DNA of 64,000 nucleotides from Dehalococcoidia bacterium (lineage in GTDB: Bacteria; Chloroflexota; Dehalococcoidia; Plut-88900), in assembly GCA_965197645.1 (NCBI GenBank), contig OZ240219.1, positions 1,344,001-1,408,000 of the forward strand, in the 5' to 3' direction. Position numbers and translations under genes: made by a program. Positions 1,572 to 24,023 of this stretch are shown in pieces. The notes under the pieces are model-generated. The model was given only the letters and a program-made list of their open reading frames with translations, was not told the DNA's origin and ran no database searches. The stretch's first letter is position 1. The number at the start of each line of letters is the position of its first letter.

Positions 1572-1704
1572 GTCAATACCACCTGTGTATATAAAATGCT
1601 ATGAAAGTCTATGACAGTATAGAACTTCCCCCCTCCTTACAGTCAACAGAGTCTTGCCGAAGCCGGAGTCGCTCCGAGGTCCCGGTCCGCAGCGGCTTCC
1701 ACCT

Positions 1705-2552
1705 TCAACCTCCCGCCTCCCACAGATCCTGAAGCCCCTTGACGAAAGCCTGCGCCTTGGCTATGGTCCACTGCTCCCGCCCTCGCCCGAACAGGGGCAC
1801 CTGTCCGTTCTGGCACTTGCAGCCCTTGAGCTGCGCCTTCTTCAGCCAGTCGAGGATGCTCGTATAGGTCGGCGCTAATTCCGGTTTGAACAACCCGTTG
1901 GGTACGTTGTAGAGCAGGCACTCGATGAAATACGATGGGGCGGCGTCCTTGGTGAGCGCCTTCCTTTCGACGAGCCGGTTCCGGGCCGCCTTGAACATGC
2001 GGATGGTCCTCTTGAACCGGTTGTTAGCGGCTTTTTCCTTCCTCAACCCTCGGGAATGGTGCTGCTGTGGAAGGCTGACGACCCAGCGCCCCTCGTCGGA
2101 GAGATAGAATCCGATGCCCTCCCTGTGGCTCACCGTGACCACGAGGTCGGCGTCCGCCGGGATCCTGCCCTTCGGCACCTTCAGAGTCTTACGGCCGCTC
2201 TTTGCGGCCTTCCCGAACCTGGCCCGCAGAGCCTTCAGCGCCTCGTCCCGGAACGACTTCCATTGTTGGTGTACGAACCTGTGGGAACCATCTTCCTGCA
2301 GCAGTTCGCCGGTAAGGTCGGCCACCGCGGGCTTTAGCTTCGACGACAGCCGGACGACCACATCGACGTCGCTGTCCCCGCCGAGGTTCGTGTCGTTCTT
2401 GTACGAGCCCTGGAGAAAGACCTCGTACTTGAACTGCGATAGGGGCCCTTGTGGGCTTTGAGGGCCTCCCGGATGGGTACATGAGCCTGCTTGAAGGCCG
2501 TTCCGGCCTGATGATGGCTCCACCTGGATAGTGTTGATTCAGGTATAGGCAT
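1705..2552 (-). pseudogene. cGAS/DncV-like nucleotidyltransferase (CdnE-like CD-NTase) split by a 1-nt frameshift near 2442-2448
   Basis: N-terminus MPIPESTLSRWSH..PIREAL is in one frame; QGSYKNDTNL..DSDVD, RFKRTIRMFK and APSYFIECLLYNVP are in the -1 frame; joined length ~282 aa. Confidence 0.8.
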
Positions 2553-2608
2553 TTCTCACCTTAGAGCCCCCCATATGCCCGGACGTCCAGATGGACACAA
2601 CCACACGG

Positions 2609-3538
2609 TCACTGGGAGGTAGGCTGTTGTCGATGTGTTTCGACCAGATTGCTCCCTACGACACGGTAATGAACTTCAAATCTGTGCATTTCTGGAACCG
2701 GTCTCGAATCAGTGGCAACGTGGCCAATCTTCCCCCAGAGCACATAGCTGTCGTTGCCCGCACTGCGCGGCTTCAGCGTTTCGGCAGGGAACTGGATTCT
2801 CCTGTTCTCCTTTGGATCAATTGGGTGGTTGGCTGTCATAAGGCCCGACAGGATTTTCTTGTAGGGGTCAGGTTCCTGAATTCGGTAGTACACCTGAAAC
2901 GGGACGGACGTCTTGACATCAAACACAACCTGGAACCTCTCCAGATTGTCGGTCGCTAGATGAGGAGTGACGCTGAGAATGGAGCCTTCTCTCTCCGCCT
3001 GAACGGCGTCGAGCGTGTGGCCTAAGGCACCGCGAAGCCTACTCGACAGGTCCTCTCTGACGCTGGTTCGCACCGGGTCTTCCAGTCCTTTCGTTACACC
3101 GCGAGTTGCCGGGTCTTCAAGAGAGAACTGAAGCGGGCGGCTGCCGCGCACGTCGAAGGGAAGTTCCTTCAGGTCTCCAGCGGGAAGATACGCTGCATTG
3201 ACGGCACATATTATGCGCGTCCTGCCTAATCCTGTAGCCAAGGCGTAGCCTAGCTCGAAAAGGACGTTGGGGTTTGGCGTAAGCCTAGTGTCTGACCGCG
3301 GGCCGTTGATGGGGGTGATATCCGCTACAAACACTTCACATCGCTCGATCTTGTCGAGGATGGTAGAAGTGATCTCCGGCCACCCGGCTACTCCGGAAGT
3401 ATCCTCGTCCAACCGTAATGCTTCTTCAAGGGCAAGGTCTCGATTCAGGTTGTTGACTGCCTTGGCCAGGGCCGCCTGGATGACGCCCCTCGTCTCTCCG
3501 AGGTCAGATTGCCATGAGAAGAAGATCGTATTAGTCAT
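2609..3538 (-). CDS. TIR-like / nucleoside-deoxyribosyltransferase-like domain protein with unknown C-terminal domain; putative CBASS effector
   Basis: IFFSWQSD, ILDKIERCEVFVADIT, PNPNVLFELGYA, LPFDV; ATG 3538 overlaps the upstream stop (ATGA). Confidence 0.7.
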   Translation of the reverse strand: MTNTIFFSWQSDLGETRGVIQAALAKAVNNLNRDLALEEALRLDEDTSGVAGWPEITSTILDKIERCEVFVADITPINGPRSDTRLTPNPNVLFELGYALATGLGRTRIICAVNAAYLPAGDLKELPFDVRGSRPLQFSLEDPATRGVTKGLEDPVRTSVREDLSSRLRGALGHTLDAVQAEREGSILSVTPHLATDNLERFQVVFDVKTSVPFQVYYRIQEPDPYKKILSGLMTANHPIDPKENRRIQFPAETLKPRSAGNDSYVLWGKIGHVATDSRPVPEMHRFEVHYRVVGSNLVETHRQQPTSQ

Positions 3539-12500: not shown

Positions 12501-15047
12501 CTGCGTGCGGTCGAGGAGAAGGGCGGGGTCAGGCTGACCTGGCAGTCCCCGGACGGCGCCGCGGTCACCGGCTACCGCATAGAGCGTCGCCGCGCCGGCG
12601 GGCAGGGCAGCGGTCCCCAGCGTTCCCATGGGCAGCCCAGGGACCACCACACCCTGGTGGAGGACACCGGCAACACCGAAACGAGCTATGTCGATGAAAG
12701 CGCGGAACAGGGCGTCGAGTACGAGTACCAGGTCAGCGCCCACAACGAGTCCGGCCCGGGCGAGGAATCGGACTGGGTGAGGGCCGGGCCGGAGGAGGAG
12801 CCGGTGTTGGGCGACGCCCTGCCGGGAGCGCCCCGCAACCTCACCGCCACCCCGGGAAACCGGGAGGTCACCCTGTCCTGGGACCCGCCCGACGACAACG
12901 GCAACCCGCCCGCGACGAGATACCGCATCGAGTGGAGGGTCGACGGCAAGGACTACGACAGGAACGATTGGGGCACAGCGCAAGAGACGACCTATACGAC
13001 GAACGCCCAGGCCAACCTGGCCAATGGAGTCAAGTACTTCTTCCGGGTAAAGGCCGAGAACGATGACGGCAATAGCTACGGGCCATATGGACCGTCCTCC
13101 GGGGAGGTGAGCGCCACTCCCACCTCCGGCTCGGCGGTGGACCTGGGCACGCCGGTGCTGTCGGACACGGAGACCCTGCACCACGGCATAGTGCAGCTGG
13201 ACTGGCAGGACATAGAAGACGCCGGTTGGTACGTGGTCCAGTACTACCACGTCGAAGACGAGGAGTGGCTGGACCTGCCCGCCGAGGGAGTGGACATCGC
13301 GTTCCACGGATCGAGCGCGGTGGTGAGCAACCTGCATGGGCTCTCGTGGCTGAGGGTTGGTGCGATGAGCTGTGCGGGAGCATCGGAGTGGTCGCAAATC
13401 GAGGAGTTGTACGGGACCAACGCATCGGACTGGGAGGGAGTGCCCGTACCCGAGGTGGCGGAGGGCGACGAGATCGAGCCATGCCCCGTGGTCCTGGGCA
13501 CGCCGGTGCTGTCGGACACGGAAGACCTGCATCACGGCATGGTGCAGTTGGACTGGCAGGACATAGAGGACGCCGGGTGGTACGTGGTCCAGTACTACCA
13601 CCTCGAAGACGGAGAGTGGTTGGACCTGCCCGCCGAGGGAGTGGACATCGCGTTCCACGGTTCCAGCGCGGTGGTGAGCAACCTGCATGGGCTCTCGTGG
13701 CTGCGGGTTGGTGCGGCGAGCTGCGACGGGGCATCGGAGTGGTCGCAGATCGAGGAGTCGTACGGGACCAACGCATCGGACTGGAAGGGTGTGCCCGTAC
13801 CCGAGGTGGCGGAGGGCGACGAGATCGAGCCATGCTCAGAAGACGCGGACACGCCTGACAACAGCCCGGCGACGGGCGCGCCCACCATCAGTGGGACCGC
13901 CCAAGTGGGAGAGACGCTGACGGCGAACACGTCTGGGGTCGCCGACGGGGACGGGCTTGCAAATGCCACCTTCGGCTATCAGTGGCTTGCCGACGATACC
14001 GACATCGCAGGCGCTACCGGCTTGACCTACACCCTGACCGATAGCGAAGAAAGCAAGGCCATCACGGTGCGGGTGAGCTTCACCGACGACGCCGACAACG
14101 ACGAGACGCTGACCAGCGGAGCAACGGACACGGTGGAGGCGGCGCCCACTACCAACAGTCCGGCCACCGGCGCGCCCACCATCAGCGGGACCGCCCAGGT
14201 GGGCGAGACGCTGACGGCGGACACGTCGGGCATCGCCGACGCCGACGGGCTTAGCAACGTCCAATACGAGTACCAGTGGCTTGCAGACGATACCGACATC
14301 GCAGGAGCGACCAACGCGACCTACACCCTGACCGATAGCGAAGAAAGCAAGGCCATCACGGTGCGGGTCAGCTTCACCGACGACGCCGACAACGAGGAGA
14401 CGCTGACCAGCGCGGCTACGGACATGGTGGCCGGTGCGCAACCCACGGAGCCGCCCGCCAAGCCCACGGGCCTCGACGCCACGGCGACCCACGACTCGGT
14501 GACCCTCACCTGGGACGACCCCGACGACGACTCCATCACCGGCTACGTGATCCTGCGGCGCGTTCCTGGGTTCGACCCGGAGGGCCACTTCGATGTGCTG
14601 GTGGCGGACACGGCGACGGCGGCAACCAGCTACACCGACGACACCGTGTCGGCGGAGACTCGCTATACCTACCGCATCAAGGCAATCAACGGGGCCGGAA
14701 CGAGTGAACGCTCGCGCTGGGTCCACATCGACACTCCGGCAGCGCCCGTACCCGATAAGCCCACGGGCCTCGAAGCCACGGTAACCCACGGCCAGGTGGT
14801 CCTCACCTGGGACGACCCCGGCGACGACTCCATCACCGGCTACGTGATCCTGCGGCGCGTCCGCGAGAACAATACCGGGGGCGATTTCAGTGTATTGGTC
14901 GCGGACACGGCCAGCGCCGCGACCACCTACACCGACGACACCGTGTCTGGCGGCCTCACCTACACCTACCGCATCAAGGCGATCAACGAGCACGGAACAA
15001 GCGAGCGGTCCCGCTGGTACCACATCGACATCCCCGAGGCCCCGTAG
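6546..15047 (+). CDS. Giant secreted adhesin-like protein (cadherin-like, cadherin, multiple FN3, PPC-like, Calx-beta domains)
   Basis: GGAGG RBS; signal peptide ending AQA-Q; DATLSALSL..KVTAEDG cadherin-like domain; ENQT..PNYE cadherin; W..P..GY..Y FN3 repeats; DTIVEEDETFTVTL Calx-beta; acidic, Thr-rich. Confidence 0.9.
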   Translation: MTETIKRLRFPRLRFPVPVVTTLALLVILAAVALSGTAQAQTAITLVSNIGQAEATLSRNPVGQPIGLQFTTGDNAAGYNLDSVEIAVGDYENVVVTVSLYSDSSGEPGSSIFNFTNPTSGITADAVNTFTAPANTTLAGSNTPYFIVFDGANDPDESTNRIRIKMTHTNDEDSGGATNAEGDADWEIADISHALDSGVWYGDDTDELKIRLKGSAKSGGDTPTVSTDATLSALSLGTGVTLSPAFDADTYAYTASVANSVDEVTVTASTTDTDATFEYLDESDATLDDEDTNAAGHQVELDVGDTVFKVKVTAEDGTTTQNYTVTVTRAACTLNDGDLWCGVVDVGTITNSGGMTQSHGFQGTKGDLSDKTFSLMFETGTTNNYTITAIVVGARTAISEQLFFVTSNTLTNTEEESLALHVDGESDPFVWSDSTEVIPGSYRWPARTDLDWSSETTVTLRLREFLRPTVTNVAVTSMPVLETDTYGAGETIEVSVTFSEAVDATSNTDFVLSVGGARRAPLLSGSGTATLVFGYTVVSSDEDTNGIWIGDETRTLVGNRNGEPQNGTITSVATGAAAVIAHTLLGTDSDHKVDGSRTTDNVAPAFTSSATFDAAENQTAAGTVLATDDDTDDSVTGYEITGGADQTSFSIGATSGVLTFDAAPNYEDAEDQGTNNTYVVDVTATSGTGTREMTATQTITVTVTDVAEQSAKPDKPTLAAVSGSTTSLTATWTKPDLNGGPDITGYDLQYRAGATGTWSSSTSYGATVTTATITGLTADTSYQARVLAKNGETDSDWSDASDAVSTNAAVAMTPTDVLVSNYPDGSGSDFNLNFVQSGNSQRRYFAQTFTAGAGFTLTAVDIPFRRVPDNSRVTVSLHARNGSKPGTYLGELDLSGALAVGDNTFAAPAGTALAAGEYFIRVRWRMGDTDNLRMTDGPDDETSAESGWSIEDRSQYSASGSSWSNWNQQFAMRVRGTIDGVPRVATGGVRIESDPDAHDSYGVGEEIEVAVGFTDDVTVDTTSGTTSVALTVGSNTRYADYSASDSDDDELAFVYTVTADDHDQNGVSIAADALELNGGAIHKDGDSSTNAVLDHAALDADSDHRVNRDPIIVSDGVSVISDPQAATDTYGLGEVIEIEVEFSAAVDATTNTDFVLSVAGAKRAPLLRGSGTKKLVFGYTVVASDDDDDGIWIGEQDRTLVGNRNGEPQNGEITSAVTDRAADLDHDSPGVLSDHKVDGSRTTDNVAPSFTSLATFDAAENQTAAGTVVADDSDADDSVTGYAITGGADQALFEIGATSGELTFKSAPNFEDPQDTDTGNDYVVEVTATSGTGTREMTADQTITVTVTDVDTEAPGKPGAPTVSAASAASATSLSVNWSAPTNAGPAITDYDVQYRAGTSGAWSDGGHVGTATTATLTGLSEDTSYQVQVRATNDEGTGDWSDSGSGTTDAAPSDDCPNDTTTTCEVDVGGSATGTSGTLDRDWFRVVLEAGTRYQIDVEGADTGRGTLPNPAAALFDTSSTNLGANNDGGVGENARLIYTPTTSGTYYVQASNVSAVDEGTYTLSVIVLGANGNSEADTDFPNNNTTTGRVEVGASVTGNVESANDVDRFRVDLEADKEYQFDLEGAPTGRGTLPDPALSFADATGTVLEYDDNDGDGVNSQIVYTPTATGVYYLRPHSRVDTETGTYTLSVREVPTAVLPTLSIVNKSETEGSLMVFLLSLSEATSENVAVTCTATFGGGDTAVAEDLTFTSANGGVRSGQVVGICSFRSVQDTIVEEDETFTVTLSGVSSNAQLATDPTAKGTILDDDDPPVDDSETEEDDLAADTTTTGTVEVGRAAVRGDIFAPEFSEGDGPNEVDGWDFDTDWFEVELEADKTYRIDMWGHTTANGLTLRLPQINAIYDSKGSFIVNTWYSDESDSHYLFRVTFTASSNRSYYIAASGESFEWGTYKLWVKDITEDDHGDHGDEGDEGDGTNGGKGLKNLRAVEEKGGVRLTWQSPDGAAVTGYRIERRRAGGQGSGPQRSHGQPRDHHTLVEDTGNTETSYVDESAEQGVEYEYQVSAHNESGPGEESDWVRAGPEEEPVLGDALPGAPRNLTATPGNREVTLSWDPPDDNGNPPATRYRIEWRVDGKDYDRNDWGTAQETTYTTNAQANLANGVKYFFRVKAENDDGNSYGPYGPSSGEVSATPTSGSAVDLGTPVLSDTETLHHGIVQLDWQDIEDAGWYVVQYYHVEDEEWLDLPAEGVDIAFHGSSAVVSNLHGLSWLRVGAMSCAGASEWSQIEELYGTNASDWEGVPVPEVAEGDEIEPCPVVLGTPVLSDTEDLHHGMVQLDWQDIEDAGWYVVQYYHLEDGEWLDLPAEGVDIAFHGSSAVVSNLHGLSWLRVGAASCDGASEWSQIEESYGTNASDWKGVPVPEVAEGDEIEPCSEDADTPDNSPATGAPTISGTAQVGETLTANTSGVADGDGLANATFGYQWLADDTDIAGATGLTYTLTDSEESKAITVRVSFTDDADNDETLTSGATDTVEAAPTTNSPATGAPTISGTAQVGETLTADTSGIADADGLSNVQYEYQWLADDTDIAGATNATYTLTDSEESKAITVRVSFTDDADNEETLTSAATDMVAGAQPTEPPAKPTGLDATATHDSVTLTWDDPDDDSITGYVILRRVPGFDPEGHFDVLVADTATAATSYTDDTVSAETRYTYRIKAINGAGTSERSRWVHIDTPAAPVPDKPTGLEATVTHGQVVLTWDDPGDDSITGYVILRRVRENNTGGDFSVLVADTASAATTYTDDTVSGGLTYTYRIKAINEHGTSERSRWYHIDIPEAP
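7990..10890 (+). repeat. Intragenic duplication of a ~0.95-kb module, offset 1932 bp (~7990-8950 vs ~9922-10890)
   Basis: TDTYG..TDFVLSV..RTLVGNRNGEPQNG..DHKVDGSRTTDNVAP..TSGTGTREMTA occurs twice, with high DNA similarity. Confidence 0.85.
13142..15040 (+). repeat. Three successive tandem domain pairs (351-bp unit x2, then two ~295-bp units x2 each)
   Basis: LGTPVLSDTE at 13142/13493; NSPATGAPTISG x2; KPTGL..TWDDP..RSRW x2. Confidence 0.85.
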
Positions 15048-15317
15048 CGGGCAGCGAGGACTGCGCGGGCTAGGGGCCGTCCGCACGAGAGACGGCGGAA
15101 AGCTGCCCGACGGGTCGGCGCTGACCGTCAGCGGTCCGGGCCGGTAGAGGGCAACGGAGAAAGCCCGCACACATGGATAAAAGGGGGGAGGCCGCCACCA
15201 TTCGGCAAGCACGGCGTGGCCTCCCCCAGGGCTCCGGGTTGGACCGACTGCGGGAGGGAGCTTGCACTCCGCACACCGTACCGCCCGGGGTTTCCGTCCT
15301 GCGGAAGGACCGGCTCG

Positions 15318-15563
15318 ATGCCGAGACAGCGAGTTGACTACTACATACAAACCTACGAGTTCCCCGACGACTTCCCGGAGCGGCTCAAGCGGTTCCAGAA
15401 GGAGTCCGGCCTGTCCTGGTCGGAGATTGCGCGGCGCATCGGAACCTATCGCTACACCGTATGGCGCTGGAAGGAGGGCAGGGGCCGCCCCAACATGGAG
15501 CACATGATGGCCCTGCTCGACCTGGCCGAAAGCCTGGGCCTCCGCCATATCTTCACGGACTGA
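15318..15563 (+). CDS. XRE-family HTH regulator
   Basis: FPERLKRFQKESGLSWSEIARRIG..TVWRW..G..P; AAGGA RBS. Confidence 0.8.
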   Translation: MPRQRVDYYIQTYEFPDDFPERLKRFQKESGLSWSEIARRIGTYRYTVWRWKEGRGRPNMEHMMALLDLAESLGLRHIFTD

Positions 15564-15670: not shown

Positions 15671-18052
15671 CTAGCGTCCCGCGCCGACCGTCTCCTTCCC
15701 CCGTTCCTGCTCCATCGCCCACTCGAACATCGAGAGGCTTGCGGGCTGGGGCTTCCCGTTGCGCTTCGGCTTCACCGGCTCGGCCATGAACTCGGCCCAG
15801 GAGAACAGCGACTGCTGCGGCTCCGGGTCCTCGTCCTCGTGGTGGCCGTTGGTCCCGTTCCCGTTGGCCGGGGCGGGCGCGTGGCCGTTCCCATTGCCGT
15901 TGGCGTGGCGGCCGTTGGCCGGCACAAGCTCGACCGTCGGCCCGAACAGGTCGTCGTGGTGACCGTTGCCATTCCCGTTCCCGTTGACCGCAATGGTCTC
16001 CGGCTCGATCTCGACCAGCTTCCAGCCGTCGTCCACCAACAGCTCCTCGGCGGTGGCCTCAGCGTTCCTGGCCTGGGCGAACACCTCCTCCATCGTCTCG
16101 GCCTCGTCCTCCTCCTCGCCGCTGACGATCTTGCGGGCCAGCGCCATAATCATGTCGTCGCCGTCGTCCCCGTAGGCCGCGAGGCCGTCCTCCGGCAGCT
16201 CCCCCTCGACGGCCAGGGAGCTCTGCATCTTCTTTGCCACCAGCTTCAGCGCGTCGGCCTGGAGCGTGTTCCGGTAGGACATGAACACGACCTTGACCGG
16301 GCGGGTCTGCCCGATGCGCCACGACCGCCGCGACGCCTGCCGGACGACGTACACCGAATAATCTGTCTCGTCCCAGACGATGGTCGGGAAGTCGATCAGG
16401 TCGAGGCCGGTCTGCACCAGCCTGGGATGGCAGATGAGGACATCGATGCCCTCCTTCACCTTGTCCGCGACCCACTTCTCCCTGCGGTTCGGGGCCACCG
16501 CGTCGGCCTTCATCACCGCCACCCGGAAGCCGTGCCGGGTGAGGAAGTCGTCCATCCGCCCGGTGATGTCACGCGTCCCCGTATGCGTGACGTAGACCAG
16601 CACCCGCCTTCCCTCCAGCCGCTCGGCGGCCACCAGGTCGACGAGCGCCTTCTCCTTCGGGTAGAGCTTCTCCTCGGAAAGCGGCGGGACCGCCACGATG
16701 ACGTCGCCCGTCCTGGGGTCGAAGACCGTCTCGCCCCTGGTGCAGCCGTCGGGGTAGGCCAGCAGCGTCTGGAGGTAGGTCGCCAGCAGCCGCTTGGAAC
16801 CGGCCTTCAGAGCCGCCGCCAGCTCCTTCTTCAGCTCCTCGAACACCTTGTTGTAGGCGCTGCGCTGGGAGTAGCCGGTGGAGTCCTCCTCCGAGTCCAT
16901 CGAGGACACGAGGATTTTCTCCTCGTAGTCCGGCAGCCCGGAGGCGACGTCGGCCAGTCTGAGGAACACCGTGTTCCCGATGATGTGAAACAACGCCGAG
17001 GGCACGAGTCCCGGCCTCTCCCTGGTGACCTTGCGGTAGCTGCGGCGGCGGCTGTTGCGCCCGTCCTCCACCGCGTCGTCGTCGGGCTTGCCGACGGTGA
17101 CCTCCTCGAAGCCGTAGCGCTGTATCCAGCGGTGCTCGTCGGAGCGCCCGAACTCCGTCCTGATCTCCGGCGAGAACCGGTAGAGCAGGTGGAAGATGGT
17201 CGAGGAGTAGCCGCCGAGGAGCGTGCCCGTAAGGGAGAGGGACTTGCCGCACACGTCGGCGAGGATGCCGGCGGCGATGCCCTGGGCCGAGCCGCGCCCC
17301 TTGAACTCGTGAACTTCGTCGCCGATAAGCAGGTCGAAGAAGCCCTTCATCCGGTGCTTGATGTAGTCGGCCAGCGGGTAGCGGGCCGGGCCGGACCTGT
17401 CGGCCTGCCAGAGGGGGGCGTCGCAGGCGGCGCAGGTGTGCTTGCGGCGGTTCAGGTCCGCGAAGGTCAGCGGCACCCCGTCCTTGTCGACGATCTGCGC
17501 CGTGCAGTCGGGGCAGCAGGGGATGCGGAAGGGCTCCCCCGTCTCCTCCTCCCGCAGGAGCCTTCCCTTGGATACCGCCCACCGCTCGATGACGGCGGGC
17601 ATCCAGCGGTAGGACAGCTTGGCCTTCTCCCGGCTCATCACCGCGAACAGCGGGCCGGAGCCTATGGAGAGGCGCAGCCGCTCCAGGTCGGTGATGGACT
17701 CGACGATGGCGGCGCGGACGCCGGGCACCGTCATCTCCACCTCCCGCTTCCACTTGGGGACCAGGTGCGGCGGGCAGATGATGAGCACCCGTTGGAATCC
17801 CGCCATGTACGCCGCCGCCGCGCCGATGAATGTCTTGCCGGTGCCCATTTCGCCCACTACCGTCGTGCCCCGGTGGGCCTTCAGCGATAGGGCCGCGCCC
17901 CTGATTGCGTCGGCCTGCGCTCCCAGGGGCCTGCGGAGCAGCCTGGGGAGCGTGCCGCCGTTCTCCGAGGGACGGTAGAGCGGCGGGTAGGACTCGACCA
18001 CCCTCCTGGCTATCGCGTCCTTGAACGTGTCTATGAAACCTCCGAGGTTCAT
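15671..18052 (-). CDS. SNF2-like superfamily-2 helicase
   Basis: EMGTGKT, DEVH, LTGT, TGLDL, QASRRSWRIGQ; CxxC pairs; AAGGAGG RBS. Confidence 0.9.
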   Translation of the reverse strand: MNLGGFIDTFKDAIARRVVESYPPLYRPSENGGTLPRLLRRPLGAQADAIRGAALSLKAHRGTTVVGEMGTGKTFIGAAAAYMAGFQRVLIICPPHLVPKWKREVEMTVPGVRAAIVESITDLERLRLSIGSGPLFAVMSREKAKLSYRWMPAVIERWAVSKGRLLREEETGEPFRIPCCPDCTAQIVDKDGVPLTFADLNRRKHTCAACDAPLWQADRSGPARYPLADYIKHRMKGFFDLLIGDEVHEFKGRGSAQGIAAGILADVCGKSLSLTGTLLGGYSSTIFHLLYRFSPEIRTEFGRSDEHRWIQRYGFEEVTVGKPDDDAVEDGRNSRRRSYRKVTRERPGLVPSALFHIIGNTVFLRLADVASGLPDYEEKILVSSMDSEEDSTGYSQRSAYNKVFEELKKELAAALKAGSKRLLATYLQTLLAYPDGCTRGETVFDPRTGDVIVAVPPLSEEKLYPKEKALVDLVAAERLEGRRVLVYVTHTGTRDITGRMDDFLTRHGFRVAVMKADAVAPNRREKWVADKVKEGIDVLICHPRLVQTGLDLIDFPTIVWDETDYSVYVVRQASRRSWRIGQTRPVKVVFMSYRNTLQADALKLVAKKMQSSLAVEGELPEDGLAAYGDDGDDMIMALARKIVSGEEEDEAETMEEVFAQARNAEATAEELLVDDGWKLVEIEPETIAVNGNGNGNGHHDDLFGPTVELVPANGRHANGNGNGHAPAPANGNGTNGHHEDEDPEPQQSLFSWAEFMAEPVKPKRNGKPQPASLSMFEWAMEQERGKETVGAGR

Positions 18053-18316: not shown

Positions 18317-19654
18317 CTACGCAGCTGCCGTCTCCGGCTGCCTCAGCATGGCGGAGTAGCCCCTCTCGACGACGTGGGTGACCGAGACCCGGCCCATGCC
18401 GTCGTACCCGGCGCGGTAGGCGTACTCCGCCTTCGCGCCCCAGGGCACCCGGCCGCCGACCCGAATGGAGCCGCCGCCGGCCTTGGCGCCGCGCCCGGGG
18501 CCACCGGCGCCGCGCACCACCATCCCGCTCCGCTCGCCCTTGCGCCAGCCCAGCACCTTCACCTCGGCGGGCATGACGCGCTCCGCACTCGTCTGCTGGA
18601 ACAGGACGCCGTGGAGCCTCTTCAGAACGCCCGGCGACGGGTTGTTCCTGCCGTTCATGATCTGGGAGAGGTTGGCGGAGCTGATGCCCGCTCGCCTGGC
18701 AACCTCGTTCTGGCTGAAGCCGTGAGCGTCCATCCGGCCCCACATCGCCTCCCGGTCGATGCAGGCGGGCTGCTCGGGAGCGACCTTCACCGGAGCCTCC
18801 AACACCGACGCGATCCGCGCTTGGACTTTCACGCCCATGCTCCCGCGGCCCCGCGCCACCATTGACATGTAGCCGTAGGAGACGCCCACGCGGTCGGCCA
18901 ATTCCTGCATGGTCATGCCCAGCTCCCTGGCCCGCTCCCTGATGTAGCTGGACTCGCCGCTCACGACGGGTCCCTGTCGGTTGGCGCACTTGGCGGGCGC
19001 GATCTTCGCCGGGGCCTGCAACACCGACTCGACCCTGGCCTGCATCTTCACGCCCATGTGCTTGCGGCCACGGGCCACCTGCGTCATGTATCCGTAGGAC
19101 ACGCCAGCGCGGTCGGCCAGGTCCTGCATGGTCATGCCCAGCTCCCTGGCCCGCTCCCGGATGTAGCTGGACTCGCCGCTCACCACTTCCCCCTGGCGGT
19201 TGACGCACCGTGCGGGGGCAACCTTCGCCGGGGCCTGCAACACCGACTCGACCCGCGCCTGGACCTTGACGCCCATGTGCCTGCGGCCACGGGATACGTC
19301 CGTCATGTAGCCGTAGGACACGCCAGCGCGGTCGGCCAGGTCCTGCATGGTCATGCCCAGGGTGCGTGCACGCTCCCGGATGAAGCTGCTCTCGCCGGTC
19401 ACGACGCCGCCCTGGCGGTAGACGGTCCCCTGCCCGGGGACCTCTCCCAGCACCGCCGCAGCCTTCTCGCGCATCTTCGGCGTCCACGGCCTACCCCCGT
19501 TCGCAATCTGCGAAAGGTAGCCCGCACTCACGCCCATCATGGCCGCGAGCTCCTTCATGGTGACCCCGCGCCGCCTCGCCGCAGCCCTGAGCTCGCTCTC
19601 CGCTCCCGCCGTCTCGTTGGTCCGATTGGTCTGTGTCGTCGTTGCCGTCGTCAT
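18317..19654 (-). CDS. Protein with five tandem XRE-type HTH domains (three near-identical 73-aa repeats)
   Basis: GMTMQ(D/E)LADR(A/V)GVSYGYM x3 at a 219-bp period plus two divergent HTHs; AGGAGG RBS. Confidence 0.88.
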   Translation of the reverse strand: MTTATTTQTNRTNETAGAESELRAAARRRGVTMKELAAMMGVSAGYLSQIANGGRPWTPKMREKAAAVLGEVPGQGTVYRQGGVVTGESSFIRERARTLGMTMQDLADRAGVSYGYMTDVSRGRRHMGVKVQARVESVLQAPAKVAPARCVNRQGEVVSGESSYIRERARELGMTMQDLADRAGVSYGYMTQVARGRKHMGVKMQARVESVLQAPAKIAPAKCANRQGPVVSGESSYIRERARELGMTMQELADRVGVSYGYMSMVARGRGSMGVKVQARIASVLEAPVKVAPEQPACIDREAMWGRMDAHGFSQNEVARRAGISSANLSQIMNGRNNPSPGVLKRLHGVLFQQTSAERVMPAEVKVLGWRKGERSGMVVRGAGGPGRGAKAGGGSIRVGGRVPWGAKAEYAYRAGYDGMGRVSVTHVVERGYSAMLRQPETAAA

Positions 19655-19669
19655 GTCGCTTCCTCCTGT

Positions 19670-19745
19670 AATGAAGAAGCGGGACCGCCCCCCTGTGGGA
19701 GACAGTCCCGCTTGATGCCTTGTCCCGATGGCCGGGACTGTCTCC
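19670..19745 (-). terminator. Leader terminator with an overlapping alternative (antiterminator) stem
   Basis: AAGCGGGACUGUCUCC-CACA-GGGGGGCGGUCCCGCUU-CUUCAUU; upstream GGAGACAGUCCCG is complementary to the 5' arm; G-U pairs fix the minus orientation. Confidence 0.55.
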
Positions 19746-20142
19746 TTGGGTGGCGTAGTTGCCGTGGCGAATGGCCGGTGCGGCGTCCCGGACTCAAGTC
19801 CGGGGCGGCCTCTGCGGAAGGCCGTGTGCGGGGCAAGCCCCCGGAATCAATCCGGGGCAGGCTCCGTCGTGCATAGGGCACAGGTCCCACCCCAACCGGA
19901 GTCGGGGAGCAGACCTGTGCGACGCGTGTGGGGTTGGGGGAAGAGGGATCGAAGCCCGCAGAGGAGCGGGCGGAGGAGGCAGCGATCCCCATGCGGGACG
20001 CTGCCTGGTGAAACGGAGCGCCCATGCAAGCAGTCGCAAGAAGGCGACGACTCAGGGTCCAAGCAGGGCACTGAGGCGCCCCGTTTGCCTCACGAGTCGT
20101 CAACCGTTGCTTGGGCCACGTCAGCGCCGGGCCACTCTCCGG

Positions 20143-20646
20143 TCAGGGCCGAGGGTAGGCATTCGTCAGGGGCCGAAGCCCCCGCAGGCTGCGCCCCGAG
20201 ACCACCTTGCCGGGCCGCCAGCTCATACCCAACACCGCGGCGACCTCCATCGTCCCGTCGCCCTGGGGAACCAGCGCGGACGCCCTTCCCGTGCCCTGGC
20301 TGTAGAGCATGATCTTCCCGCCGCCGAACCGCCGCTTCACCAGCTGCGTCCACTCGGAGAAGGCCCACCGAGCCTCCCTCTGCGTAGTCTTCGCAGCGTC
20401 CACGCCGGCGAGGACCGCCAGCGCCCCGTCGACGTCCCCCGACTGCCTGAGCCGCCGGGCCTCGTGAATCGAGCGCACCGCGCTCGGCTCCGCCGTCTCC
20501 GCCGATGCCGTCTGCGTTGCGGCTCTCGGCTCCTCCACCTTGAACAGCGCCGCAATGAGCTGGTCGACCAGCTCCTCCAGGCTGCGCCGGGGCCTGTCCA
20601 CCGTGTCCATCGTCCGATTGCCTGCTACCAGTGTTGCCGTCGTCAT
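20143..20646 (-). CDS. Hypothetical protein
   Basis: AAGGAGGTG RBS; high-GC3 codon pattern; co-oriented with neighbours. Confidence 0.7.
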   Translation of the reverse strand: MTTATLVAGNRTMDTVDRPRRSLEELVDQLIAALFKVEEPRAATQTASAETAEPSAVRSIHEARRLRQSGDVDGALAVLAGVDAAKTTQREARWAFSEWTQLVKRRFGGGKIMLYSQGTGRASALVPQGDGTMEVAAVLGMSWRPGKVVSGRSLRGLRPLTNAYPRP

Positions 20647-20704
20647 CGTGCACCTCCTTAGTGCCTATGCTTTGTTGCCTTGCCGAATGCGCCCGCTTGC
20701 GGGC

Positions 20705-20741
20705 AAAGAAGAAGGGCCGCCCCCGGATGGAGACGACCCTT
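20705..20741 (-). terminator. Intrinsic terminator-like hairpin
   Basis: AAGGGUCGUCUCC-AUCC-GGGGGCGGCCCUU-CUUCUUU. Confidence 0.55.
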
Positions 20742-20781
20742 TGCGTGTTGGGATGGGTGAGGGAGCCCGAGGCCCCCGTTG

Positions 20782-21270
20782 TCAGCGTCGCCTTACAGGA
20801 CGCCGGGGCATGAACCGCCGTAGCAGCATCCAGCCGATGCCCAGCCCGACGAGGTTCAGGAAGAAGAGCTCCAGGTCGAGGGTCAGCAGCGGCGCCGCAA
20901 CGACCAGAGCGACGACCCCTGCCACGACCACCTTCTTCCGCTTCCACCAGGGACGCTTCTCAGGGGCCTTGGCCGCCGTGTCGGGAACCGGCTCGAAGGC
21001 CGTCCAGATGGGCAGGCCGACGAGCGCCTCGAGCTGCGTGATGACCAGACCGCGTGAGCAGCCCCGGGTGTGGCACCTGGTGTCGATGCCCTGTCCGTCC
21101 GGTCGCTGCCGAAACGCCAGCCCGTCCGACTTGCCGCCGTGACAGACCGCCGTGCTCGTCCAGAACCAGCCCTTGTCGAAGCTCACCCGGTGCGGCAGCA
21201 GATCGGCGATCCGTGCCGCGCTCGGTCCCACGTACTGCTCCGTCGTTGCCCGTGTCCGTGATTCGTCCAT
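20782..21270 (-). CDS. Small protein: primase-like Zn-ribbon motif plus two C-terminal TM helices
   Basis: AVCHGG..RCHTRGC; hydrophobic VVVAGVVALVVAAPLL and FFLNLVGLGIGWML; AAGGAGG RBS. Confidence 0.65.
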   Translation of the reverse strand: MDESRTRATTEQYVGPSAARIADLLPHRVSFDKGWFWTSTAVCHGGKSDGLAFRQRPDGQGIDTRCHTRGCSRGLVITQLEALVGLPIWTAFEPVPDTAAKAPEKRPWWKRKKVVVAGVVALVVAAPLLTLDLELFFLNLVGLGIGWMLLRRFMPRRPVRRR

Positions 21271-21601
21271 GTGCGATACCTCCTTGTGTGTTGTGTGCCG
21301 TTGACGCCATGACTCCGTTCCGAAGACGCACCCGGCCCGCCAGGGATGCGAACGCATGGGAGACCGGGGTGAAAGAAGACGCAGCTCGCCCCGGGATGAA
21401 TGGCGTCAAGGGGGAAGGGCTGCGAGACATGAAGCGACCAGCCTGCTTGAGACGGCAGACCGGCGCATGTCGAAGCTGCGGCCCGGCTGCGTGACAGCCA
21501 TGCCGCGGGCATGAGGAGTCGGTCGAAGCGACAGACGCACTTCGACCGACTAAGTGAGGACGAGGCGCAAGGGGCGCGCTTCGTCGCTGAGTCCAACGGC
21601 G

Positions 21602-21880
21602 AGAGCGATTGACTCCAAACCGCCAGACCGGTGTCCAGCGACCGAAGCGATCAACTCCGATTCGCCAGACCAATGCCCAGCGAGTGAAGCGATCAACCCC
21701 AACCGCCAGACAGGTGCCCGACGTATGAAGCGATCAACTCCACTCGCCGGACGGGTGTTCAGCGGGAGAAGGACGAACGTCAACTCCAACCCGCCGAACT
21801 GGACCGAGGACGAAGGCGCTGTGTCAACTCCGTCGAATCGGCCCGCGCTGGTTGCGAAGGACCAACGTCAAACTCCGCAG
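21602..21880. repeat. Degenerate tandem repeat array, ~7 units of 41-46 bp, core GAAG..TCAACTCC..CGCC
   Basis: Units start at 21602, 21644, 21686, 21727; further TCAACTCC-like cores at 21780, 21824, 21868. Confidence 0.8.
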
Positions 21881-22133
21881 TGGCCAGCATTCCCTCTTGG
21901 GTGACGCTAAGGTCAACCCGTGCAACAGGGATCACGCACCCAGGTTTCTATGGTCGGAAACCGTGGTAAAAGCCAAACAGTGCAACCATTATTACCAGAC
22001 CCTTTCGGCGTTGAAAAGGCTTTGGAAGCGTGACCGCCCAAATCCGTCTATCCAGTTCATGTAAACGTCATAAAAACATCCGAAAAAGTTCATATGGTTC
22101 CCGTGCGGCGCTCCCGTGCGTTGTTGCGGCCCT

Positions 22134-22937
22134 TCACTTCCGCCAAAGCCCGAAGGTAACTCTGCGCATGAACTCGGCCTTCTTCCGCCCTCTCCGCGTG
22201 TCGGAGAGAGCGGTCCTGCGCCAGGTGATCTGGCCGCTCCGGTCGAAGTCCCGCAGCGGCTGCTTCTCAGGCGGCAGGGTCATCCCGTGCTCTTCGAGGA
22301 GGGCCAGCTCGACCTTCAAGACCCGCTCCTGGGTGGTCAGCCACTCAACGCTCTCGCCCCGTTCGGGGTGGGCGTCCAGCAGCTTCCGCCACTCGACGAT
22401 GAGGGGCCAGGCCGCGCCGAATATCTCCTCGTCGTCCGGGGCAGGCTCCAGCGTCGCAAGGTCGGGGTACTCCCTGCGCATCGAGGGCTTCGACGGAGGC
22501 TTTCCGTCCCGGTCCGCAGCACTGGCCCCGGACTGCTCCTCTCCCTCCTGCGCAGCTTCGTAGCCGTCGTCCCGCCGCAGGGAGGCCAGCTTGCCCTCGA
22601 CGGAGGCCATCCGCCTGCGAAGCTCCTTGCCCAGCTCGTCGTGGCCCTTCTCAAGCGCATCGACACGGGCCTCCAGCTTCTCGTTGCGCTCTCGCTGGCG
22701 CTCCGCAGCCGAGCCGACGCCCTCCTGCAACGCCCGCTCCAGGGAGTCCCGCGTCCGCCGTGAGAGCCGACCCGTCCTGATGCTCTCGACCACGGTCTTC
22801 GGGTCTATCTCCAGCACCCGCGCCGCGCCCTTGGGACCCCGCTTTCGCACCAGCTCTTGCAGCAGCGCCATGAGCCGCATGTGGTACATGTTCTCCACGG
22901 CCCGGCTCTCCTCGATGCCGTGTTCGGTAGTCTTCAT
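22134..22937 (-). CDS. Hypothetical protein with N-terminal HTH-like motif and coiled coil
   Basis: GPKGAARVLEIDPKTV; AAGGAGG RBS before MKTTE. Confidence 0.7.
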   Translation of the reverse strand: MKTTEHGIEESRAVENMYHMRLMALLQELVRKRGPKGAARVLEIDPKTVVESIRTGRLSRRTRDSLERALQEGVGSAAERQRERNEKLEARVDALEKGHDELGKELRRRMASVEGKLASLRRDDGYEAAQEGEEQSGASAADRDGKPPSKPSMRREYPDLATLEPAPDDEEIFGAAWPLIVEWRKLLDAHPERGESVEWLTTQERVLKVELALLEEHGMTLPPEKQPLRDFDRSGQITWRRTALSDTRRGRKKAEFMRRVTFGLWRK

Positions 22938-23297
22938 GGCAATTTCCTCCTTCTCAGAACCTCGTTTCGACTTCGCCCCAGCTACGGCCCAGCTTTGGCC
23001 CGGCGTTGACTTCGGTTGCCGACCGGCGTCATGCACCCCCACGTCGCCGGGGTTTTGCGCCCCGTTTTCCGCTCCACCCGCCCCTTTCCCGTGATGCGTG
23101 CCCCCCACCGTCGAGCGGGTTTTGAGCCGGATGACCTGAACGCACTCTTTCAACAAAGTGTTCACTGTTCACGTCCTGTAGGGGGTGATTCATGCCCATT
23201 TCAGCTTTGCCACGACCCGATATTCGATTTCCTCCGAAACTCAATTTCCTGTACAGCCCCATTACTGCATAGATGGAGGCGTTTTCCAATGACCTCG

Positions 23298-23325
23298 TAA
23301 GGTGCATTACTGTTGATGCACCTTA
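23298..23325. promoter_or_regulatory. Perfect 10-bp inverted repeat TAAGGTGCAT-N8-ATGCACCTTA upstream of the transfer operon (operator or oriT part)
   Basis: Seen directly, in a low-GC divergent intergenic region. Confidence 0.5.
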
Positions 23326-23417
23326 TGGGTAGTTTCTAACCCTTTTTCGGTTGTTCACACTCTCCTGCGACGGCCTCCAACCGGTGGGCCGCACGAAAGC
23401 GAAGAGAGGTGGACAAC

Positions 23418-24023
23418 GTGGCGCTGAAATCGAAGCTCCGGTCGTCAAGGCGGTTTATTCCCCTTGTTTCCGCGCTGCTATTGGCGGCGCTTCTGGCAAT
23501 CCCCGCAAGCAACATCGCCCTGGCCCAGGCCCCGCCCGGTAACGAGCTGACCCTCGTCAACGCCGACCGGGAGTTCGTGGAGCGCAAGGGCGGCGGCGAG
23601 TTCGTCGCCCGCCCCGTCTTCGACCGGAGGATCGAGGTCCTCCACTACGCCGTCCGCGACGCCGACACCGGCGACTGGATAAGCGCCATGTACCGGGTCA
23701 AGGGGGGCGAGAAGAAGCGCTCGGATGGCTGGGAGTACTCGTGGGAGTACCCAGACCTGGACGACCACCCCGACCTCGACCGCGACAAGGCGTACCTCTT
23801 GGTCATGCTGGCCGTCGCCGAGGACGGCAAGCGGGGAGACTTCTACGCCGTCGTCCCCATCCACGAGCCGGGGCGCATCTGGGACAAGATTCTGAGCGCC
23901 CTCAACCCGGCGCGCTGGGCGAGGGCCTTCGCCGGCTGGATGATCGAGGGAGTCCACGGGACCCTCTGCGGAGTGGTTGAGCGGGCGTCCGGCGAGGACG
24001 CCGACAACTGCGGGGGCGGGTAG
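23418..24023 (+). CDS. Exported hypothetical protein, first gene of the transfer operon
   Basis: Signal peptide ending ALA-Q; 3 bp from the next gene. Confidence 0.7.
   Translation: MALKSKLRSSRRFIPLVSALLLAALLAIPASNIALAQAPPGNELTLVNADREFVERKGGGEFVARPVFDRRIEVLHYAVRDADTGDWISAMYRVKGGEKKRSDGWEYSWEYPDLDDHPDLDRDKAYLLVMLAVAEDGKRGDFYAVVPIHEPGRIWDKILSALNPARWARAFAGWMIEGVHGTLCGVVERASGEDADNCGGG

What the first reader, a model, noticed from the sequence alone, without database searches (positions are those of the whole stretch)
18317..19654. Five-HTH repeat protein with variation at recognition-helix positions
Seen: three 73-aa repeats are nearly identical, but all three differ at SYGYM-[TD/TQ/SM]-V and RGR-[RH/KH/GS]; other differences lie mostly in the linkers. 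Known: in XRE/434-type HTHs these helix positions and the following loop contact DNA. Inference: a modular, expandable DNA reader recognising a long composite site, possibly the repeat array 2 kb away.
Basis: partly seen in the sequence, partly recalled or inferred. Interest (0 to 1): 0.7.

Follow-up and report, generated by a model that had tools for sequence, protein, structure and literature searches.

The report
Expandable five-headed XRE regulator of ICE
The gene encodes one protein chain carrying five small DNA-binding heads whose number grows and shrinks by recombination and whose DNA-touching residues change fastest; it is the hallmark regulator-like gene of a family of self-transmissible elements in uncultured Dehalococcoidia, but the nearby repeat array is probably a folded leader RNA and not its landing site.

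Summary
ORF 18317-19654 (-) encodes a basic 445-aa protein. It has five XRE-type HTH heads, three of them 73-aa tandem units (71-81% identical), and a conserved unknown C-terminal tail.

It lies in an integrative conjugative element found only in Dehalococcoidia among what was searched, often in several copies per genome.

Homologues carry 1 to 5 internal units; 2 is usual. The window's middle unit is a hybrid of its neighbours, as unequal crossing-over would produce.

In 68 distinct two-unit genes, the three fastest-changing head positions, summed over all four heads, are residue 6 of the recognition helix and two residues of the following loop. Their rate is near or above the neutral rate, against 0.31 for the whole gene.

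So "modular, expandable, variable at DNA-contact positions" is supported. The link to the 41-bp array is not:
- Array type follows the neighbouring gene o343, not this protein.
- Array copy number does not follow unit number.
- The array folds strongly on the gene strand only, as a leader RNA would.

The DNA target is unknown. Most likely this is an element-specific multivalent regulator. This scan noted the same family before on other DNA (e1-1538319).

The parts
18317..19654 (-). Multi-HTH gene (445 aa, P0001), pI 10.5
   Evidence: whole-gene dN/dS 0.31 across 68 distinct two-unit homologues
19445..19597 (-). Head 1 (residues about 20-70), N-terminal XRE HTH
   Evidence: helices 21-28, 33-40, 44-51, 59-69 in the model; aligns without gaps to the unit core
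19217..19435 (-). Unit 1 = head 2 (residues 74-146), signature TD..RH
18998..19216 (-). Unit 2 = head 3 (residues 147-219), signature TQ..KH; hybrid unit
   Evidence: codons 1-25 are 85% identical to unit 3 and 67% to unit 1; codons 26-73 are 90% identical to unit 1 and 80% to unit 3
18779..18997 (-). Unit 3 = head 4 (residues 220-292), signature SM..GS
18599..18757 (-). Head 5 (residues about 300-352), C-terminal XRE HTH
   Evidence: Pfam best stretch 309-350; pLDDT 79-91; Foldseek matches to SinR, P22 c2, HipB, DdrO
18320..18598 (-). Conserved C-terminal tail (residues 353-445), no known family, predicted beta strands at low confidence
   Evidence: invariant W, PWG, AGYDG columns in 72 sequences; pLDDT 30-56; no Pfam and no Atlas lead
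19677..19745 (-). Structured leader just upstream of the RBS: a perfect 13-nt inverted repeat (19733-19745 / 19698-19710) that overlaps a second hairpin (19677-19713)
   Evidence: RNA fold of 19655-19760 (-) gives -54.4 kcal/mol, z -6.55
20143..20646 (-). ORF o167, optional cassette gene; its 5' end copies the 5' end of the multi-HTH gene
   Evidence: direct repeats 19606-19659 / 20598-20651; present in 30 of 80 loci
20712..20741 (-). Terminator-like hairpin, conserved just before the multi-HTH gene in the two-unit paralogues
20782..21357 (-). ORF o191, optional, no family
   Evidence: 21 of 80 loci
21591..21930 (-). 41-46-nt repeat array; each unit is two small hairpins on the gene strand (core GGAGUUGAUCGCUUC)
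21988..22017 (-). Sigma-70-like promoter match (TTTTCA-18-AATAAT) reading into the array
   Evidence: 1 found; 0.4 expected in shuffles
22134..23165 (-). ORF o343, no family; the syntenic neighbour whose clade follows the array type
   Evidence: found in 76 of 80 loci
15671..18052 (-). SNF2/ResIII-like helicase downstream, optional
   Evidence: 24 of 80 loci
15216..15563 (+). Small HTH protein, convergent, near the left end of the element
   Evidence: 48 of 80 loci

Best explanation
This is a real gene for a single-chain, multivalent DNA-binding protein. It has five XRE/Cro-C1-type helix-turn-helix heads joined by flexible linkers of roughly 20 residues, followed by a conserved tail of unknown fold.

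It is a core gene of a multi-copy family of integrative conjugative elements (ICEs) of Dehalococcoidia. It sits behind a long structured non-coding leader, and the type IV secretion operon lies a few kb away.

The internal heads are encoded by a 219-bp tandem DNA repeat. Unequal crossing-over and gene conversion within that repeat add, remove and shuffle heads, giving 1 to 5 internal units. The extra head of the window's three-unit form is kept under purifying selection.

The residues that change fastest in every head are residue 6 of the recognition helix and the loop just after it. By analogy with 434/lambda-type repressors these face the DNA.

Inferred, not shown: the protein acts as an element-specific regulator, most likely a repressor, of the ICE's own genes. 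It would work like an oligomeric XRE repressor (ImmR, Rco, TrbA) but with the multivalency built into one chain. Its specificity would diversify among the many related elements that share a genome.

The 41-bp array upstream is most likely part of the leader RNA that precedes the gene, not the protein's binding site.
For: Shown:
- Head fold and family.
- Basic charge: 66 K+R against 37 D+E.
- ICE context: VirB6, VirB4, coupling protein, Replic_Relax and a serine recombinase.
- Synteny in the 80 loci: o343 in 76 of 80, VirB6 in 50 of 80.
- Restriction to Dehalococcoidia MAGs, with up to 7 loci in one genome, and 19 of 401 sampled genomes of the class.
- Three copies in the window's own genome.
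- Unit counts in the 80 loci: 2 units in 68, 1 in 7, 3 in 3, 0 in 2.
- Unit counts in the 121 database proteins: 2 in 98, 3 in 21, 4 in 1, 5 in 1. This comes by subtracting the counts.
- P0002 reads u1-u2-u1'-u2'-u3, with u2 identical to u4. P0003 has units 2 and 3 identical.
- The window's unit 2 is a hybrid.
- The extra unit has dN/dS 0.23-0.61 among the 4 three-unit genes with DNA.
- Site-wise counts on 68 distinct two-unit genes, summed over 4 heads: position 46 has N 65.8 and S 3.2 (binomial p 0.014); position 52 has 54.8 / 12.2; position 53 has 59 / 18. These are the top 3 of 56 head positions. Their nonsynonymous rate is 1.05-1.14 times the gene-wide synonymous rate, against 0.31 overall.
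- 7 of the 25 columns with most nonsynonymous changes are 46/51/52/53-type sites, where about 1 is expected (hypergeometric 2.8e-5).
- Positions 41-48 are helix 3 in the model.
- Co-resident copies differ in at least one head signature in 66 of 69 within-genome pairs.
Against: - No binding site was found. A 9-mer search for words tied to head alleles in the 2.9 kb upstream gave nothing convincing.
- Rates near 1 at positions 52 and 53 fit relaxed constraint as well as diversifying selection. Only position 46 exceeds its own neutral expectation, and only at p 0.014.
- The method was parsimony on a FastTree tree of recombining sequences.
- Several of the most variable columns lie outside the heads: the tail (PARB residues 329 and 351), the linkers, and unit position 67.
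- Within-genome pairs are no more different in signature than between-genome pairs: 64% against 74% share no head signature. So there is no direct sign of selection for heteroimmunity.
- The tail is unmodelled.
- The role of residue 6 as a base contact is recalled from 434 repressor, not tested here.
Confidence: 0.6

Rival explanations
1. First reader's reading. The heads line up on the 41-bp repeat array at 21602-21880, so protein and array form a matched reader and site whose unit numbers go together.
For: - An array with the same core lies upstream of the gene in all 3 copies in the window's genome and in 51-54 of 80 loci.
- The 41-42-bp period equals four helical turns, and the commonest form of the protein has four heads. 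This is arithmetic, not a test.
- One weak hint: the core variant with TCGAC in place of TCAAC occurs in 5 of 6 loci carrying the unit-1 allele E/K/H, and in 3 other loci.
Against: - The period is 41-42 bp both for the five-head window copy and for the four-head paralogues.
- Strong array units: 3, 4 and 0 in the three-unit loci L007, L008 and L009; 2-4 in two-unit loci.
- The same four-head signature set occurs with the GCGATCAAC-type array (L016, L035, L050, L056) and without it (L015, L048).
- Array type follows o343: 47-96% identity to the window's o343 in 46 array-bearing loci, against 33-49% in 22 others. The multi-HTH protein runs the other way, median 68% against 75%.
- The 15-nt core is close to invariant (1.8-2.0 bits at 9 of its 15 positions, lowest 0.93) while the recognition residues vary.
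- The array folds on the gene strand only: -98.4 kcal/mol with z -6.1, against -48.7 with z +1.3. The gene strand is the more stable in 48 of 48 arrays.
- G-U pairs are abundant, 26.6% of cells in hairpin A and 40.2% in hairpin B (my sums of the pair types).
Confidence: 0.1
2. Establishment or anti-defence factor. The operon behind the leader is expressed early in a new host, and the heads bind host or rival-element DNA, for example to silence defence genes. This would drive an arms race at the DNA-contact residues.
For: - Fast change at contact positions in all heads.
- Mosaic shuffling of head alleles among elements.
- Neighbours are variable cassette genes and an SNF2-like helicase.
- No matching site was found inside the element.
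- pLS20-family plasmids place variable establishment genes behind dedicated regulatory sequences (PMC8708921, abstract read).
- Phage CasPR proteins silence cas genes by binding DNA, and one of them carries four HTH domains (bioRxiv 10.64898/2026.02.23.707548, passages read).
Against: - Nothing shows early expression or a host target.
- In that CasPR the four HTH domains were dispensable for the anti-CRISPR activity.
- The position of oriT, and so whether this is the leading region, is unknown.
Confidence: 0.15
3. Neutral repeat dynamics. Head number changes are tolerated slippage or recombination noise in a tandem DNA repeat. The variable positions are simply unconstrained surface residues of heads that bind DNA without base specificity, or redundantly.
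For: - Rates at positions 51-53 are about 1, not clearly above it.
- The four- and five-unit forms are each a single cluster with identical duplicated units, so they are very young.
- Equally variable columns exist in the linkers and the tail.
Against: - The three-unit form persists in 21 database clusters, plus 3 of the 80 loci, that have diverged to 90-97% identity. Its extra unit is under purifying selection.
- The same three positions are the hot spots in all four heads, while their neighbours sit at 0-0.4.
- Position 46 has 65.8 nonsynonymous against 3.2 synonymous changes.
Confidence: 0.15

Closest known systems
Dimeric or tetrameric XRE/Cro-C1 repressors of mobile elements (434 and P22 c2 repressors, SinR, ICEBs1 ImmR, pLS20 Rco)
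   Same: Same head fold. Encoded on a mobile element. The recognition helix and following loop are the variable parts. Multivalent binding is the expected mode of action. The roles of ImmR and Rco are recalled, not checked here.
   Different: These proteins gain valency by oligomerising one head per chain. Here 3 to 7 heads lie in one chain, their number changes by recombination, and there is no recognisable oligomerisation or sensor domain, only an unknown tail of about 95 aa.
TrbA, transfer-gene repressor of IncP plasmids (NCBIfam NF010465)
   Same: Best-scoring named family: 100.7 bits against a cut-off of 96. Also a regulator encoded by a conjugative element.
   Different: The score is the sum of four heads, each matching only profile positions 15-67 of 121. 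The rest of TrbA is absent, so this protein is not an equivalog.
TAL effectors and other tandem-repeat nucleic-acid readers (recalled, not searched)
   Same: Near-identical tandem protein repeats, a few hypervariable residues at fixed repeat positions, and repeat number changed by recombination.
   Different: Only 1 to 5 units, each 73 aa. Each unit is a whole HTH domain that would read several base pairs. No one-repeat-one-base code is known or implied, and there is no homology.
Four-headed XRE regulator noted earlier in this scan (e1-1538319) and the leader or hairpin-array notes (e1-1538318, e1-4756230)
   Same: Same protein family, same element family and same non-coding region, on other genomes.
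   Different: Added here: the site-wise rates, the hybrid-unit evidence for unequal crossing-over, and the uncoupling of protein from array.

Membership tests
XRE / Cro-C1 helix-turn-helix (Pfam HTH_3 PF01381, HTH_31 PF13560) | Profile match above the curated cut-off | tested here: met
   HTH_3 114.9 bits against 23; HTH_31 98.6 against 27
XRE / Cro-C1 helix-turn-helix (Pfam HTH_3 PF01381, HTH_31 PF13560) | Compact four- to five-helix bundle with helix 2, a turn and helix 3 | tested here: met
   Five bundles of four helices at pLDDT 70-86. Head 5 superposes on SinR, P22 c2 and DdrO at rmsd 1.1-1.4 A over 49-54 residues
XRE / Cro-C1 helix-turn-helix (Pfam HTH_3 PF01381, HTH_31 PF13560) | Sequence-specific binding to double-stranded DNA | not testable with these tools
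   Needs EMSA or DAP-seq. The complex predictor was unavailable and takes no DNA
TrbA (NF010465, equivalog) | Full-length match to the 121-position profile by a single-head protein | tested here: not met
   Four stretches, the best covering profile positions 15-67 only; the total score is inflated by the repeats
Iteron-binding or centromere-binding protein paired with the adjacent array | Protein specificity and unit number co-vary with the array | tested here: not met
Iteron-binding or centromere-binding protein paired with the adjacent array | The array is a double-stranded protein-binding site with no strand preference | tested here: not met
   Strand-specific fold and G-U-rich hairpins
TALE-like modular repeat reader (works-like comparison only) | Tandem repeats with hypervariable residues at fixed positions and a variable repeat number | tested here: met
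TALE-like modular repeat reader (works-like comparison only) | Each repeat reads its own sub-site, so that the order of repeats spells the target | not testable with these tools
   No target is known

The most novel reading that the evidence does not exclude
A natural HTH-based counterpart of TAL-type logic. It would be a single chain of XRE heads that mobile elements lengthen, shorten and re-assort by recombination. A small pool of specificity alleles at recognition-helix residue 6 and the following loop would be shuffled among elements. Each element would thereby spell its own long composite DNA address, used for element-specific immunity or to silence host or rival DNA.
Probability: 0.15. 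Interest if true: 0.8.

Novelty: new variant of a known kind. Interest (0 to 1): 0.55.

Why it matters
XRE repressors are the textbook one-head-per-chain, dimer-on-palindrome regulators. A family in which 3 to 7 heads are strung in one chain would be new in three ways: head number evolves by unequal crossing-over, the contact residues are the fastest-changing sites, and alleles are re-assorted among co-resident elements. It would show a new way for mobile elements to evolve regulatory specificity. It could also serve as a scaffold for designed multi-site DNA binders.

It also gives a first handle on the control region of an undescribed ICE family in Dehalococcoidia. I found no paper on such a protein or element in four full-text searches.

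The negative result matters too. The conspicuous array next to the gene should be studied as a structured RNA or single strand, not as an operator array.

Tried and rejected
- **Words tied to head alleles.** A 9-mer association between head alleles (positions 46/52/53) and the 2.9 kb upstream of 65 loci gave no repeated, allele-specific word.
- **Repeated motif.** GGGCNNAGCTGCGTCTT, repeated upstream of the gene in paralogue C and in L033, occurs only once in the window, fewer than in shuffles.
- **C-terminal tail.** No Pfam match and no Atlas hit. The model has low confidence. Foldseek matched only the head. Other architectures carrying the tail (P0183, fn3) look like gene-call artefacts or fragments.
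- **Complex prediction.** Complex prediction for a tail homodimer was unavailable and nothing was folded.
- **Rfam.** No family reaches its threshold in 19500-23500. The only match up to E = 1 is ftsZ-DE, 25.4 bits against a gathering score of 72.2.
- **Hairpin A.** 94% of cells are paired, but covariation is no better than column shuffles. Only hairpin B beats the shuffles: 1 of 500 shuffles reaches the observed percentage paired, and 1 of 500 the covariation score.
- **Heteroimmunity test.** Within-genome and between-genome pairs do not differ usefully.
- **Four- and five-unit loci.** A search of 401 genomes of the class for DNA of these forms found none, so array against unit count could not be checked for them.
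- **Sequencing runs.** DNA-run contigs show joints that remove or add 219 or 438 bp. At 85% likeness in metagenomes these may come from paralogous elements. RNA-library contigs prove presence in an RNA library of one study, not transcription.
- **Closest solved sequences.** Only a designed binder, ClgR and LacI heads at E 4e-4 to 5e-3.
- **Not looked at.** Supplementary files of the two papers read.
Full report
**What is there**

The ORF at 18317-19654 on the minus strand is open and 445 codons long. A GGAGG lies 8 nt before the ATG. The protein is basic, with pI 10.5 and 66 K+R against 37 D+E.

Pfam finds HTH_3 at 114.9 bits against a cut-off of 23, and HTH_31 at 98.6 bits. The AlphaFold2 model built on 51 homologues shows five four-helix bundles. 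These have pLDDT 70-86 and are separated by linkers below 50. The pTM is 0.26, so the chain is beads on a string. The last 90 residues are unmodelled.

A second model of residues 293-445, built on 72 sequences, gives head 5 at pLDDT 79-91 and the tail at 30-56. Foldseek places head 5 on SinR, the SinR-DNA complex, P22 c2-operator, HipB, DdrO and ClgR. The closest matches superpose at rmsd 1.1-1.4 A over about 50 residues, and nothing matches the tail.

**The repeats**

Residues 74-146, 147-219 and 220-292 are 73-aa units. They are encoded by a 219-bp x 3.0 tandem repeat. Pairwise identity is 71-81% for protein and 75-82% for DNA, with dN/dS 0.27-0.45.

The stated dipeptides are correct: TD/TQ/SM and RH/KH/GS. 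The positions at which all three units differ are 3 and 10 (linker), 46 and 52. In the window alone the excess in helix 3 and its loop is not significant, with 5 of 13 positions varying against 18 of 60 elsewhere.

**Context**

The gene lies in an integrative conjugative element. Its parts are:
- VirB6/TrbL at 24027
- a PrgI-like gene at 25416
- VirB4/TraC at 27546
- the coupling protein at 29390
- Replic_Relax at 32455
- a large serine recombinase at 35575
- an SNF2/ResIII-like helicase directly downstream of the gene

All 80 related loci kept from one-genome-per-species contigs are from Dehalococcoidia MAGs, with up to 7 loci in one assembly. In a sample of 401 genomes of the class, 19 have a match, spread over 9 of 222 genera. 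The window's own 3.2-Mb genome has three copies. The other two carry two units each.

The conserved order of genes is:
- T4SS operon, read away from the region
- o343
- an AT-rich patch and the repeat array
- o191 and o167, both optional
- the multi-HTH gene
- the helicase, optional
- a small convergent HTH gene

Counts in the 80 loci are o343 in 76, VirB6 in 50, o167 in 30, helicase in 24 and o191 in 21.

**Is it expandable?**

Yes. Counting full units with an HMM of the unit gives these numbers:

| Set | 0 units | 1 | 2 | 3 | 4 | 5 |
|---|---|---|---|---|---|---|
| 80 loci | 2 | 7 | 68 | 3 | 0 | 0 |
| 121 proteins of the database search, query included (minus) | 0 | 0 | 98 | 21 | 1 | 1 |

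By my reading of the open frames, the two 0-unit loci and two of the 1-unit loci (L077, L081) are fragments or broken frames. That leaves five intact one-unit genes.

Protein lengths fall at 372, 445, 518 and 591 aa, in steps of 73. The five-unit protein P0002 reads u1-u2-u1'-u2'-u3, with u2 identical to u4. This is a two-unit block duplication. In the four-unit protein P0003, units 2 and 3 are identical.

The window's unit 2 is a hybrid. Codons 1-25 are 85% identical to unit 3 and 67% to unit 1. Codons 26-73 are 90% identical to unit 1 and 80% to unit 3. The informative sites switch from unit-3-like to unit-1-like near codon 25-30. An unequal crossover in a two-unit gene would produce exactly this pattern.

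The three-unit form is not a transient. It is found in 21 database clusters and 3 loci at 90-97% identity. Among the four three-unit genes with DNA, the extra unit has dN/dS 0.23-0.61. Unit 1 of these genes is almost invariant (dS up to 0.056), while units 2 and 3 reach dS about 0.4. The genes are therefore mosaics. The signatures of units 2 and 3 are re-assorted even within this close clade.

**Where does the family vary?**

I built a codon alignment of the 68 distinct two-unit genes. I made a FastTree tree, placed codon changes by parsimony, and counted synonymous and nonsynonymous changes per column. The overall dN/dS is 0.31.

The four heads align to each other without gaps, so I summed the counts over heads for each head position. 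Here N and S are the numbers of nonsynonymous and synonymous changes. The rate is the nonsynonymous rate relative to the gene-wide synonymous rate.

| Head position | N | S | Rate |
|---|---|---|---|
| 46 | 65.8 | 3.2 | 1.14 |
| 53 | 59 | 18 | 1.11 |
| 52 | 54.8 | 12.2 | 1.05 |
| 51 | 40.8 | 14.2 | 0.82 |

Positions 46, 53 and 52 are the three highest of 56 head positions, and 51 comes next. Their neighbours sit at 0 to 0.4. Position 45 is ordinary, at 0.38.

Position 46 exceeds its own neutral expectation (binomial p 0.014). Positions 52 and 53 do not. Seven of the 25 most changeable columns of the whole protein are 46/51/52/53-type sites, where about one is expected (2.8e-5).

In the model, positions 41-48 are helix 3. 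Position 46 is therefore its sixth residue, and 51-53 lie in the loop before helix 4. From memory of the 434 repressor, this corresponds to Gln33 and the backbone-contacting loop.

Against a pure contact-residue story, several top columns lie elsewhere. These are the tail (PARB residues 329 and 351), the glycine-rich loop, the linkers, and unit position 67.

**Is the array the target?**

The array is real. Its units have a period of 41-46 bp and a nearly invariant 15-nt core. It lies upstream of the gene in all three copies in the window's genome. A profile search finds it in 51 of 80 loci at a score above 12, and in 54 at any score.

Four results speak against the protein reading it.

1. **Period.** It is the same, 41-42 bp, for the five-head and the four-head copies.
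2. **Copy number.** Strong units number 3, 4 and 0 in the three-unit loci, 2-4 in two-unit loci, and 2 in the one-unit locus L078. None was found with this profile in the other one-unit loci.
3. **Array type.** Loci without this array carry a different repeat in the same place, with core GGATTGAGC. The same four-head recognition signature occurs with both types: L015 and L048 against L016, L035, L050 and L056. Array type separates almost perfectly by the clade of the adjacent gene o343. Identity to the window's o343 is 47-96% in 46 array-bearing loci and 33-49% in 22 others. The multi-HTH protein runs the other way, with medians of 68% and 75%. Related loci are not independent, and the array is physically closest to o343. 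This shows uncoupling from the multi-HTH protein more than it shows coupling to o343.
4. **Strand-specific folding.** Each array unit forms two small hairpins on the gene strand.
   - Hairpin A has 8 pairs, and 94.2% of cells are paired, against 24-44% when the partner is slid. It shows no covariation beyond column shuffles.
   - Hairpin B is GGAGU-UGAUC-GCUUC, with 98.2% of cells paired. A-U, G-U and G-C exchange at one pair. Only 1 of 500 shuffles reaches the observed percentage paired, and only 1 of 500 the covariation score.
   - G-U pairs make up 26.6% of cells in hairpin A and 40.2% in hairpin B (my sums of the pair types). The opposite strand could therefore not form these hairpins.
   - Window 21590-21780 folds at -98.4 kcal/mol (z -6.1; 0 of 200 shuffles fold as well) on the minus strand. 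On the plus strand it folds at -48.7 kcal/mol (z +1.3; 186 of 200 shuffles fold as well).
   - The gene strand is the more stable in 48 of 48 distinct arrays.

A sigma-70-like match at 22017-21988 (-) points into the array. Contigs from two RNA libraries of one study cover 21528-21992 with 4 differences in 280 nt and 11 in 375 nt. Their pieces on the coding region are much more diverged. This is presence in an RNA library, not proof of transcription.

Two earlier notes of this scan, on other genomes, reached the same reading of a hairpin array inside a roughly 720-770-nt leader. I took the lead from them and tested it here. A function as single-stranded DNA, for example on the transferred strand, is not excluded.

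**What the protein most likely does**

It is a multivalent XRE-type DNA binder encoded by the element. NCBIfam's best name is TrbA, the IncP transfer-gene repressor. That score is the sum of four heads that match only the HTH part of the profile, so it is a resemblance and not membership.

I infer an element-specific regulator whose valency is built into one chain and whose specificity diversifies among related, often co-resident elements. In 66 of 69 within-genome pairs, at least one head signature differs. Between-genome pairs differ just as much, so this is compatible with heteroimmunity but is not evidence for it.

I could not find its site. A role in establishment or anti-defence, acting on host or rival DNA, remains possible. 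So does largely neutral repeat turnover.

**Novelty**

The family, and its 3 to 7 heads, were already noted by this scan on another genome (e1-1538319). I found no paper on such a protein or on T4SS-type ICEs of Dehalococcoidia in four full-text searches.

New here are four results: the site-wise pattern, the hybrid-unit evidence for unequal crossing-over, purifying selection on the extra head, and the uncoupling from the array. I class this as a new variant of a known kind, the XRE regulators of mobile elements.

**Limits**

- The rate analysis uses parsimony on a single tree of recombining sequences, from only 68 genes.
- The binding roles of residues are by analogy.
- The tail is unmodelled.
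- No DNA was available for the four- and five-unit genes.

Noticed in passing
window 21590-21930 (-), and the same region in L007-L086: The 41-nt 'iteron' units are pairs of G-U-rich hairpins that fold only on the gene strand. They sit between a promoter-like site and the first downstream ORF. This points to a long structured leader RNA, or a single-stranded DNA structure, with no Rfam family.
   Followed up: partly
window 19677-19745 (-): A perfect 13-nt inverted repeat (19733-19745 / 19698-19710) shares its downstream arm with a second hairpin (19677-19713) just before the RBS of the multi-HTH gene. The two structures exclude each other and look like an attenuator. The fold of 19655-19760 gives -54.4 kcal/mol, z -6.55.
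   Followed up: partly
window 19606-19659 and 20598-20651: The first codons and upstream bases of the multi-HTH gene are repeated at the start of ORF o167 (MTTAT...). In the two-unit paralogues the multi-HTH gene sits where o167 sits here. This suggests a cassette of about 990 bp was inserted and copied the gene's 5' end.
   Followed up: partly
L012 3800-3960, L033 3640-3800: Elements with the other o343 clade carry a different repeat at the same place: GGATTGAGCCTyGCTCTCC, 2-3 copies about 47-51 bp apart. The AT-rich patch before it is conserved in both types.
   Followed up: partly
G000:C1:2542864-2543072 and several loci near 5377-5650: A second set of repeats of about 97-103 bp (2-2.7 copies) lies between the hairpin array and the multi-HTH gene in many elements. 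Their role is unknown.
   Followed up: no
window 125-5919: A cluster that looks like a defence island lies just outside the element. It holds DruA (Druantia, 286 bits), a nucleotidyltransferase-domain protein, a protein with a weak TIR-like match, and an overlapping 794-aa hybrid GAF-PAS histidine kinase/response regulator with an OmpR-type output.
   Followed up: no
window 6546-15047 (+): A 2,833-aa ORF that by eye is a repetitive secreted surface protein ends about 170 bp before the small HTH gene at the element's left end. It was not scanned against any family library.
   Followed up: no
window 15671-18052 (-): The SNF2/ResIII-like helicase downstream has a C-terminal low-complexity stretch of NGNGNG repeats. 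It is present in only 24 of 80 related loci, so it is cargo-like.
   Followed up: no
window 49762-51378 and 54990-57890: An HNH endonuclease gene and an Eco57I-type restriction-modification methylase gene lie further right, outside the element.
   Followed up: no
runs X1 and X3 laid on window 18317-22100: Thousands of contig pieces at 85-99% likeness were laid (3,038 and 1,907). Some have joints that remove 219 or 438 bp, or add 219 bp, inside the repeat. The samples therefore hold many variants of this element with different head numbers.
   Followed up: no
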